A stretch of DNA of 38,457 nucleotides, taken from the sequence record MZ375235.1; one strand, 5' to 3'. Position numbers and translations under genes: made by a program. The notes under the pieces were generated by a model. The model made no database searches and was not told where the DNA came from. It saw nothing but the letters and a program-made list of their open reading frames with translations. Origin of the DNA: Escherichia phage T7. Below, piece by piece: positions 925 to 1,620 of the stretch. Each line of letters begins with the position of its first letter. Positions within the stretch are counted from its first letter, which is position 1.

Positions 925-1620
925 ATGGCTATGTCTAACATGACTTACAACAACGTTTTCGACCACGCTTACGAAATGCTGAAAGAAAACATCCGTTATG
1001 ATGACATCCGTGACACTGATGACCTGCACGATGCTATTCACATGGCTGCCGATAATGCAGTTCCGCACTACTACGCTGACATCTTTAGCGTAATGGCAAG
1101 TGAGGGCATTGACCTTGAGTTCGAAGACTCTGGTCTGATGCCTGACACCAAGGACGTAATCCGCATCCTGCAAGCGCGTATCTATGAGCAATTAACGATT
1201 GACCTCTGGGAAGACGCAGAAGACTTGCTCAATGAATACTTGGAGGAAGTCGAGGAAGTCGCACGACAGAAAGAAATTGACCGCGCTAAGGCCCGTAAAG
1301 AACGTCACGAGGGGCGCTTAGAGGCACGCAGATTCAAACGTCGCAACCGCAAGGCACGTAAAGCACACAAAGCTAAGCGCGAAAGAATGCTTGCTGCGTG
1401 GCGATGGGCTGAACGTCAAGAACGGCGTAACCATGAGGTAGCTGTAGATGTACTAGGAAGAACCAATAACGCTATGCTCTGGGTCAACATGTTCTCTGGG
1501 GACTTTAAGGCGCTTGAGGAACGAATCGCGCTGCACTGGCGTAATGCTGACCGGATGGCTATCGCTAATGGTCTTACGCTCAACATTGATAAGCAACTTG
1601 ACGCAATGTTAATGGGCTGA
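925..1620 (+). CDS. 0.3/0.7: Chimeric protein: Ocr (gp0.3, anti-restriction DNA mimic) residues 1-111 fused in frame to the C-terminal ~120 aa of gp0.7 (kinase domain deleted; C-terminal host-shutoff region retained)
   Basis: ORF track 231 aa; N-terminus is the recalled Ocr sequence through ...[11 protein letters not shown], then diverges from wild-type YEEDEE into a basic tail ([19 protein letters not shown]...LMG); stop at 1620 equals T7 gene 0.7 stop 3100 minus 1480. Confidence 0.85.

What the first reader, a model, noticed from the sequence alone, without database searches (positions are those of the whole stretch)
925..1620. In-frame fusion of gene 0.3 (Ocr) to the C-terminal third of gene 0.7 created by a 1,480-bp early-region deletion
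The ORF at 925-1620 encodes 231 aa. Its first 111 residues are Ocr as I recall it (ending ...[11 protein letters not shown]), but instead of the wild-type acidic tail YEEDEE it continues into a strongly basic 120-aa segment ([38 protein letters not shown]...[12 protein letters not shown]). Gene 1 starts at 1691 versus 3171 in the T7 reference, and every downstream feature keeps the same 1480-bp offset, so the ORF stop at 1620 corresponds to the gene 0.7 stop at 3100. The basic tail is therefore the C-terminal part of gp0.7, the region associated with host transcription shutoff, while the N-terminal kinase domain is gone. Whether the chimera keeps anti-restriction or shutoff activity is not determinable from sequence.
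Basis: partly seen in the sequence, partly recalled or inferred. Interest (0 to 1): 0.6.

Follow-up and report, generated by a model that had tools for sequence, protein, structure and literature searches.

The report
Known T7 Ocr–gp0.7 deletion fusion
This is phage T7 carrying the well-known 1,480-bp laboratory deletion that joins the anti-restriction gene 0.3 (Ocr) in frame to the tail of the kinase gene 0.7; it is real, and it has already been described and partly tested.

Summary
The window equals the T7 reference (V01146) minus bases 1257-2736, plus six substitutions and no other indel. The breakpoint lies inside a 13-bp direct repeat, AGGAAGTCGAGGA (reference 1244-1256 and 2724-2736). 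This is the longest exact repeat in the dispensable early region.

ORF 925-1620 encodes Ocr residues 1-111 joined to gp0.7 residues 240-359. That is the whole Ocr fold plus the whole shutoff (SO) DNA-binding domain, with no kinase domain.

The allele is already published:
- Isaev et al. 2020 (PMC7261183) call it Studier's H1 deletion. They report the same 231-aa fusion, full protection against EcoKI and weakened anti-BREX activity.
- Heineman & Brown 2012 (PMC3470554) list "1257-2736, 0.3-0.7 fusion".

The exact protein occurs on 53 public contigs. The closest record is the CRISPR genome-reduction clone T7_20S (MZ375236.1).

Related in-frame fusions exist in Yersinia phages YpP-Y (228 aa) and phiA1122 (140 aa).

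Verdict: a spontaneous repeat-mediated deletion selected during laboratory passage. It is already known and of low interest. GenBank's label "protein kinase" for this ORF is wrong.

The parts
912..916 (+). Shine-Dalgarno sequence (GAGGT) of gene 0.3, which now drives translation of the whole chimera
   Evidence: Sequence read; unchanged from the reference. Its role as the ribosome-binding site of gene 0.3 is established T7 knowledge, not tested here.
925..1620 (+). Fusion ORF, 231 aa plus stop: Ocr(1-111)-gp0.7(240-359), 27.3 kDa, net charge -8
   Evidence: Annotated 'protein kinase' in MZ375236.1. The exact protein is QZB83474.1 / QZB83433.1.
925..1256 (+). DNA derived from gene 0.3. Encodes the complete Ocr DNA-mimic fold (net charge -23) and lacks only the last six acidic residues, YEEDEE
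   Evidence: Identical to V01146 925-1256. Pfam PF08684 ocr, 213 bits, residues 3-103, full profile 1-101. PDB 1S7Z residues 1-115, E = 1e-68. PHROG 2568.
1244..1256 (+). The surviving copy of the 13-bp direct repeat AGGAAGTCGAGGA; the deletion junction lies somewhere inside it
   Evidence: The left and right identity runs overlap at 1244-1256. The reference copies are at 1244 and 2724, 1,480 bp apart, in the same codon phase in both genes. This is the longest exact direct repeat in reference 890-3170.
1257..1620 (+). DNA derived from gene 0.7. Encodes gp0.7 residues 240-359, the complete shutoff (SO) DNA-binding domain (net charge +15, basic core 112-180), plus the stop codon. The kinase domain (1-242) is absent
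   Evidence: Identical to V01146 2737-3100. PHROG 2828 matches only profile positions 233-366 of 366. Domain limits come from PMC13645617. Charges.
1633..1633 (+). Minor E. coli promoter C (reference 3113), retained downstream of the fusion
   Evidence: V01146 annotation, mapped with the -1480 offset.
1691..4342 (+). Gene 1 (T7 RNA polymerase), intact. Shown as context to fix the 1,480-bp offset

Best explanation
The window is a laboratory derivative of phage T7 that carries the recurrent spontaneous early-region deletion of reference bases 1257-2736 (called Studier's H1 deletion, the '0.3-0.7 fusion').

Formation (inferred). Misalignment or short-homology recombination during T7 DNA replication occurred between two 13-bp direct repeats, one at the end of gene 0.3 and one in the middle of gene 0.7. 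One repeat copy and everything between them was removed: genes 0.4, 0.5 and 0.6A/B, promoter B, and codons 1-239 of gene 0.7. Both repeats encode (E/K)EVEE in the same codon phase, so the product is automatically in frame.

Selection (from the literature, plus inference). The deletion rises in rich-medium passage on defence-poor hosts, where the lost genes are dispensable. In the CRISPR genome-reduction experiment this clone resembles, the deletion also removes every Cas9 target in genes 0.4-0.6 and most of gene 0.7 in one step.

Product. The chimera is made from the strong gene 0.3 translation start. Its N-terminal half is a complete Ocr domain that still blocks type I restriction; this has been shown for this exact fusion in the literature. 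Its C-terminal half is the complete basic DNA-binding shutoff domain, without kinase activity. The basic appendage partly interferes with Ocr's anti-BREX function, also shown in the literature. Whether the chimera shuts off host transcription is untested.
For: - Exact identity to V01146 with 1257-2736 removed, and a 13-bp repeat at the junction.
- The repeat is the longest exact direct repeat in reference 890-3170. Only 5 of 300 shuffles of that region reach 13 bp.
- Isaev et al. 2020 (PMC7261183) describe the same deletion ('positions 1256-2735', 'deletion H1 of Studier'). They report that it arises spontaneously in rich medium, is flanked by AGGAAGTCGAGG repeats, and gives a 231-aa fused ORF. 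Their fusion phage lyses EcoKI+ AB1157 like wild type. On BREX+ cells it is about 100-fold restricted, against about 10-fold for wild type. Stop codons at the start of the 0.7 part restore growth on BREX+ cells.
- Heineman & Brown 2012 (PMC3470554) list '1257-2736, 0.3-0.7 fusion, 0.4-0.6 deletion' in a laboratory-adapted ancestor.
- PMC8923235 reports the neighbouring 1,489-bp variant, with the homology GAGGAAGTCG, and calls the locus a known site of adaptive deletions.
- The exact 231-aa protein is on 53 contigs, including Logan assemblies of unrelated runs (SRR5341074 and the SRR72687xx series), with identical DNA over window 925-1700.
- The closest record is the CiPGr clone T7_20S, MZ375236.1. 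A sibling clone with what look like designed deletions, T7_40L, keeps genes 0.3 and 0.7 whole, so this junction is not a designed one.
- Domain content. SO domain limits and DNA binding: PMC13645617.
- The AF2 model gives one continuous helix over residues 76-214, with pLDDT of about 90 or more over roughly residues 90-160 (10-residue block means). So the splice joins helix to helix.
Against: - Nothing contradicts the identification.
- The formation mechanism (slippage versus recombination) is inferred from the repeat, not observed.
- The CiPGr paper does not discuss this deletion and its supplementary design tables were not available. I therefore cannot formally exclude that a library cassette contributed.
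- Isaev et al. count the repeat as 12 bp and the split as 110 + 121 residues. I count 13 bp and 111 + 120. This is only a bookkeeping difference caused by the shared EVEE.
Confidence: 0.95

Rival explanations
1. The deletion was engineered. It would have been made by a Cas9 cut plus a designed 2 x 50-bp homology template from the CiPGr library, or copied by design as in the T7-B chassis phages.
For: The window differs at only 4 bases from the CiPGr clone T7_20S. That method deletes genes with synthetic templates (PMC9825161). A later study deliberately removed 'the 1.5 kb region' here (PMC12153263; PV223880-83).
Against: - The end points lie inside genes 0.3 and 0.7, at a natural 13-bp repeat, not at gene borders.
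- The same junction was published in 2012 and 2020 from other laboratories, and is attributed to Studier's 1973 H1 deletion.
- It is present in unrelated sequencing runs.
- Sibling CiPGr clones with what look like designed deletions keep 0.3 and 0.7 intact.
- The engineered PV2238xx junction is one base shorter and out of frame.
Confidence: 0.04
2. The chimera is not a passive by-product but is itself the selected product. Early, high-level expression of the DNA-binding SO domain, tethered to dimeric Ocr, would improve host takeover. This would explain why in-frame Ocr-gp0.7C fusions recur in T7, YpP-Y and phiA1122.
For: - Three fusion alleles are all in frame.
- The complete SO domain is kept, almost exactly at the domain border.
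- The SO domain has kinase-independent effects on some defence systems (PMC13645617).
- From my own knowledge, not tested here: Ocr also binds E. coli RNA polymerase (PDB 6R9B/6R9G are among the hits).
Against: - The in-frame outcome is forced by repeats that share a codon phase. Five of the six exact repeats of 9 bp or more between the two genes are in phase.
- Other adaptive early-region deletions remove 0.7 entirely (AY264775; the T7Δ1 ancestor).
- Stop codons right after the Ocr part are viable and improve growth on BREX+ hosts.
- The out-of-frame engineered version gives plaques of wild-type size.
- phiA1122 keeps only 32 residues of gp0.7.
Confidence: 0.08
3. It is an assembly artefact: a collapse of the assembly across the repeat.
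For: A repeat does sit at the junction.
Against: - Thirteen bases is far shorter than a read.
- The same junction appears in many independent assemblies and in Sanger-era work.
- The rest of the genome is perfectly collinear.
Confidence: 0.01

Closest known systems
T7 'H1' deletion / '0.3-0.7 fusion' phage (Isaev et al. 2020, PMC7261183; Heineman & Brown 2012, PMC3470554)
   Same: Identical deleted interval (1257-2736), identical flanking repeat and an identical 231-aa fused ORF. Genes 0.4-0.6 are lost in both.
   Different: Nothing differs at the locus. Only unlinked background substitutions differ.
CiPGr clones T7_20S / T7_30S / T7_1t1-3 (MZ375236, MZ375238, OL964748-50; Yuan et al. 2022, PMC9825161)
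   Same: Same junction. T7_20S has the same length (38,457 bp) and shares all six substitutions relative to V01146.
   Different: T7_20S has four extra substitutions (window positions 162, 3925, 24484, 33615). The other clones carry further deletions.
T7 1,489-bp variant (PMC8923235) and the Yersinia phage YpP-Y 228-aa 'protein 0.3' (NC_047939)
   Same: Same architecture: Ocr plus the complete gp0.7 C-terminal domain, in frame and formed by a repeat.
   Different: The junction uses the 10-bp repeat GAGGAAGTCG, nine bases further on, so three residues (EVE) are missing. YpP-Y is about 91% identical in DNA.
Yersinia phage phiA1122 / Y / R gp0.3 (140 aa)
   Same: An in-frame Ocr-gp0.7 C-terminus fusion, with its junction at a short repeat (CTTGAGGAA).
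   Different: It keeps only the last 32 residues of gp0.7 after the shared Glu-Glu (34 counting them), so the basic DNA-binding helix is gone.
Wild-type Ocr (gp0.3, 117 aa; PDB 1S7Z)
   Same: Residues 1-111 are identical, and the whole Pfam ocr domain is present.
   Different: The acidic tail YEEDEE is replaced by a 120-residue appendage, most of which is strongly basic. Net charge changes from -28 to -8.
Wild-type gp0.7 (T7 kinase, 359 aa)
   Same: Residues 236-359 are identical, and the SO domain is complete.
   Different: The kinase domain (1-242) is missing. Expression now comes from the gene 0.3 start.
Engineered T7-B chassis phages (PV223880-83, PMC12153263)
   Same: They remove the same ~1.5-kb block.
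   Different: The deletion is 1,481 bp, so the reading frame breaks after the Ocr part. It was made by design.

Membership tests
T7 H1 / 0.3-0.7 fusion deletion allele | Deletion of reference bases 1257-2736 (1,480 bp) | tested here: met
.
T7 H1 / 0.3-0.7 fusion deletion allele | One copy of the AGGAAGTCGAGG(A) direct repeat is left at the junction | tested here: met
   Window 1244-1256.
T7 H1 / 0.3-0.7 fusion deletion allele | An in-frame 231-aa ORF, with genes 0.4, 0.5 and 0.6 absent | tested here: met
T7 H1 / 0.3-0.7 fusion deletion allele | Phenotype: resistant to EcoKI and partly sensitive to BREX | not testable with these tools
   Reported for the identical allele in PMC7261183.
Ocr DNA-mimic anti-restriction protein (PF08684) | Full-length match to the ocr domain above the curated cut-off | tested here: met
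   213 bits against a cut-off of 25, profile positions 1-101 of 101. PDB 1S7Z, E = 1e-68.
Ocr DNA-mimic anti-restriction protein (PF08684) | A strongly acidic surface on the folded domain | tested here: met
   Residues 1-111 contain 29 D/E and 6 K/R, net charge -23. The sequence is identical to wild type.
Ocr DNA-mimic anti-restriction protein (PF08684) | Dimerisation and binding to type I restriction-modification enzymes | not testable with these tools
   Inferred from the identical sequence of residues 1-111 and the published EcoKI phenotype of the fusion phage.
T7 gp0.7 serine/threonine protein kinase | Presence of the catalytic kinase domain (gp0.7 residues 1-242) | tested here: not met
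   Only gp0.7 residues 236-359 are present. PHROG 2828 matches only profile positions 233-366. The database label 'protein kinase' is therefore misleading.
T7 gp0.7 shutoff (SO) domain | Residues 243-359 with the extended basic helix | tested here: met
   100% identical to the reference. 26 K/R in residues 112-180. Predicted helical. Domain definition from PMC13645617.
T7 gp0.7 shutoff (SO) domain | Host transcription shutoff and DNA binding when placed in the chimera | not testable with these tools
   No published test of the chimera was found.

The most novel reading that the evidence does not exclude
The in-frame Ocr-SO chimera may be a selected gain of function rather than debris. A dimeric DNA mimic carrying two basic DNA-binding helices, made first and in large amounts from the gene 0.3 start, would speed host shutoff or neutralise the toxic SO domain by pairing it with an acidic partner. 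That would account for the independent in-frame fusions in T7, YpP-Y and phiA1122.
Probability: 0.07. Interest if true: 0.4.

Novelty: already known. Interest (0 to 1): 0.08.

Why it matters
Its value is mostly practical.

- This allele hides in many 'wild-type' T7 stocks. It changes results in defence-system work, because BREX sensitivity was first misjudged on account of it (PMC7261183). Anything that depends on the T7 kinase is lost as well.
- Recognising the allele prevents misreading such genomes. It also corrects the database label 'protein kinase' or 'serine-threonine kinase' for a protein that has no kinase domain.
- It adds nothing new to biology.

Tried and rejected
- Rfam scan of window 1-6000: no family reached its threshold.
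- Promoter and terminator scan of 400-1800: only the three known A promoters. Nothing new is created at the junction.
- Alignment of the fusion with full-length gp0.7 homologues: MAFFT laid the kinase domain over Ocr. That alignment was dropped for structure prediction, and a set without full-length kinases was used instead.
- BLASTP 'coverage' above about 55% for 359-aa kinases is a spurious extension into the Ocr half, not homology between Ocr and the kinase.
- Papers not held: Bull 2012, Nguyen & Kang 2014 and Garcia 2003. The Yuan 2022 supplement is also not held.
- A search for 'D111', my first guess at the Studier name, found nothing relevant. The name H1 comes from Isaev et al.
- The minus-strand ORF 766-1191 (141 aa) is a mechanical ORF opposite gene 0.3, with no support.

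Full report
**1. What the sequence shows**

The window is a complete phage T7 genome. The first 1,256 bases are identical to the reference V01146. From 1257 onward the window is collinear with reference 2737-39937, with six substitutions and no other insertion or deletion. The length fits exactly: 39,937 - 1,480 = 38,457.

ORF 925-1620 (+) encodes 231 residues.
- Its first 111 residues equal gp0.3 (Ocr, 117 aa).
- Its last 124 residues equal the C-terminus of gp0.7 (359 aa).
- Four residues, EVEE, belong to both parents, so gp0.7 alone contributes residues 240-359.
- Gene 1 starts at 1691 instead of 3171.

**2. The junction**

Identity to the left flank runs through window 1256. Identity to the right flank runs back to window 1244. 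The overlap is AGGAAGTCGAGGA.
- In the reference this 13-mer occurs at 1244-1256 (the end of gene 0.3) and at 2724-2736 (the middle of gene 0.7).
- It is the longest exact direct repeat between the start of gene 0.3 and gene 1. The next longest are 11 bp. Only 5 of 300 shuffles of that region contain a repeat of 13 bp or more.
- Both copies are read in the same codon phase, as (E/K)EVEE, so a deletion between them is necessarily in frame.
- A second, overlapping 10-bp repeat (GAGGAAGTCG at 1243 and 2732) gives an alternative 1,489-bp in-frame deletion.

**3. What was lost and what was kept**

Lost:
- genes 0.4, 0.5 and 0.6A/B;
- the minor E. coli promoter B;
- codons 1-239 of gene 0.7, which is the whole kinase domain;
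- from my knowledge of the T7 map, also the RNase III site R0.5.

Kept:
- the A1-A3 promoters and the gene 0.3 ribosome-binding site;
- promoter C, now at window 1633;
- gene 1.

The N-terminal half of the protein is a complete ocr domain: Pfam PF08684 at 213 bits over the full profile, and PDB 1S7Z residues 1-115. Its net charge is -23.

The C-terminal half matches only the last third of the kinase family profile: PHROG 2828, positions 233-366 of 366. Its net charge is +15, with 26 Lys/Arg in residues 112-180.

An AlphaFold2 model predicts that the last Ocr helix continues without a break into the basic helix (one helix over 76-214). The 10-residue block means of pLDDT are about 90 or more over roughly residues 90-160. 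The model is a monomer built on a shallow alignment, so I treat this only as showing that the splice joins helix to helix.

**4. Provenance**

The nearest public record is MZ375236.1, 'Mutant Escherichia phage T7 clone T7_20S'. It has the same length and differs at four bases. It comes from the CRISPR/Cas9 iterative genome-reduction study of Yuan et al. 2022 (PMC9825161).

The exact fusion protein has two NCBI accessions, QZB83474.1 (T7_20S) and QZB83433.1. By its number, QZB83433.1 opens the record between MZ375234 and MZ375236. MZ375235.1 is not in the searchable collection. The window is therefore probably that record (T7_20L). This is an inference.

Sibling clones with what look like designed deletions, such as T7_40L, keep genes 0.3 and 0.7 whole. 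So this junction is not one of the designed ones.

**5. It is a known allele**

- Isaev et al. [quoted passage not shown] They identified it with 'deletion H1 of Studier'. They reported that it arises spontaneously in rich medium at 37 °C and is flanked by the direct repeats AGGAAGTCGAGG. It removes genes 0.4-0.6 and fuses 0.3 to 0.7 into a 231-aa protein.
- Heineman & Brown 2012 (PMC3470554) list '1257-2736, 0.3-0.7 fusion, 0.4-0.6 deletion' in a laboratory-adapted ancestor.
- A 2021 heat-adaptation study (PMC8923235) reports the 1,489-bp variant with the homology GAGGAAGTCG. It cites Cunningham 1997, Bull 2003 and Hammerling 2014 for adaptive deletions at this locus.
- The exact protein is on 53 contigs in the large collection. 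These include Logan assemblies of unrelated runs (SRR5341074 and the SRR72687xx series) whose DNA is identical to window 925-1700.

**6. How it works**

Formation. I infer replication slippage or short-homology recombination between the 13-bp repeats. This is the explanation given by Isaev et al., and it fits the junction.

Selection. The lost genes are dispensable on defence-poor laboratory hosts, and the cited papers describe the deletion as adaptive in passage. In the Cas9 library setting, one such event also removes all targets in genes 0.4-0.6 and most of gene 0.7. That last point is my inference.

Function of the product. For this exact allele, Isaev et al. showed the following:
- The phage overcomes EcoKI like wild type.
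- It is about 100-fold restricted by BREX, against about 10-fold for wild type.
- Suppressors that grow on BREX+ cells truncate the protein at the start of the gp0.7 part, or add a second truncated copy of 0.3.

So the Ocr half works and the basic appendage hinders part of its activity.

The retained gp0.7 segment is the complete SO domain (243-359). That domain is toxic, binds DNA but not RNA, and can shut off host transcription without the kinase (PMC13645617). Whether it does so inside the chimera is untested. Kinase-dependent functions are certainly lost.

**7. Related fusions**

In 50,697 phage genomes, single-piece matches to the whole protein occur only in the CiPGr T7 clones and in Yersinia phage YpP-Y.
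- YpP-Y encodes a 228-aa fusion whose junction is the 10-bp repeat variant.
- phiA1122 and Yersinia phages Y and R encode a 140-aa protein: Ocr through residue 106, the shared Glu-Glu, then the last 32 residues of gp0.7. The join is at CTTGAGGAA.
- Among 5.8 billion clustered proteins, only these two representatives carry both PF08684 and PF27024. The T7 fusion itself is filed inside an Ocr cluster.

All three alleles are in frame. I do not read this as selection for the chimera, for three reasons:
- Five of the six exact repeats of 9 bp or more between genes 0.3 and 0.7 share a codon phase.
- Deletions or stop codons that remove the gp0.7 part are viable.
- A deliberately made 1,481-bp out-of-frame version gives normal plaques.

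**8. Verdict**

The feature is a textbook-level laboratory allele of T7, so it is already known and of low interest. The one useful correction is that GenBank and RefSeq label these fusion ORFs 'protein kinase' or 'serine-threonine kinase' although the kinase domain is absent.

Noticed in passing
window 18326, 23205, 24763, 31539, 32692, 33783: These are the six substitutions relative to V01146, and all are missense: gp7.3 R91H, gp11 A153E, gp12 T468A, gp16 G809S, gp16 A1193V and gp17 K214E. Four of them (in gp7.3, gp11, gp12 and gp17) are also in clone T7_10L, so they are probably stock background. The two gene 16 changes are shared only with T7_20S.
   Followed up: partly
window 162, 3925, 24484, 33615: The window differs from its nearest record, MZ375236.1 (T7_20S), at these four bases, and it matches the T7 reference at all four. 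The second accession of the fusion protein (QZB83433.1) suggests that the window is MZ375235.1 (T7_20L), which is absent from the searchable collection.
   Followed up: partly
L012 (NC_047939.1, Yersinia phage YpP-Y) 1526-2212; L014 (NC_004777.1, phiA1122) 906-1328: Two Yersinia pestis phages carry their own in-frame Ocr-gp0.7 C-terminus fusions, of 228 aa and 140 aa, formed at different short repeats. RefSeq calls the YpP-Y protein 'serine-threonine kinase' although it has no kinase domain.
   Followed up: yes
window 925-1620; MZ375236.1 / MZ375238.1 / OL964748-50 annotation: The fusion ORF is annotated 'protein kinase' in GenBank. Only the non-catalytic C-terminal third of gp0.7 is present.
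   Followed up: yes
L010 (PV223882.1) about 1256; reference 1259-2739: The engineered T7-B chassis phages delete 1,481 bp at the same spot, giving GAGG-AGTCG, one base shorter. This puts the gp0.7 part out of frame, and no CDS is annotated there.
   Followed up: yes
window 1244-1261 (reference 2724-2741): Gene 0.7 contains a tandem 9-bp duplication (AGGAAGTCG twice, encoding EVEEV). This creates the two alternative recombination partners for the end of gene 0.3, which give the 1,480-bp and 1,489-bp deletions.
   Followed up: partly
reference V01146 genes 0.3 (925-1278) and 0.7 (2021-3100): Five of the six exact repeats of 9 bp or more shared by the two genes lie in the same codon phase. Repeat-mediated deletions between these genes are therefore biased towards in-frame fusions.
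   Followed up: partly
L011 (MZ375233.1, T7_10L) and L002 (AY264774.1): These full-length T7 records place gene 0.7 one base later (2022) than V01146 (2021). The extra base lies somewhere between the end of gene 0.6A and the start of gene 0.7, inside the interval deleted here. Relative to such a parent the deletion is therefore 1,481 bp.
   Followed up: no
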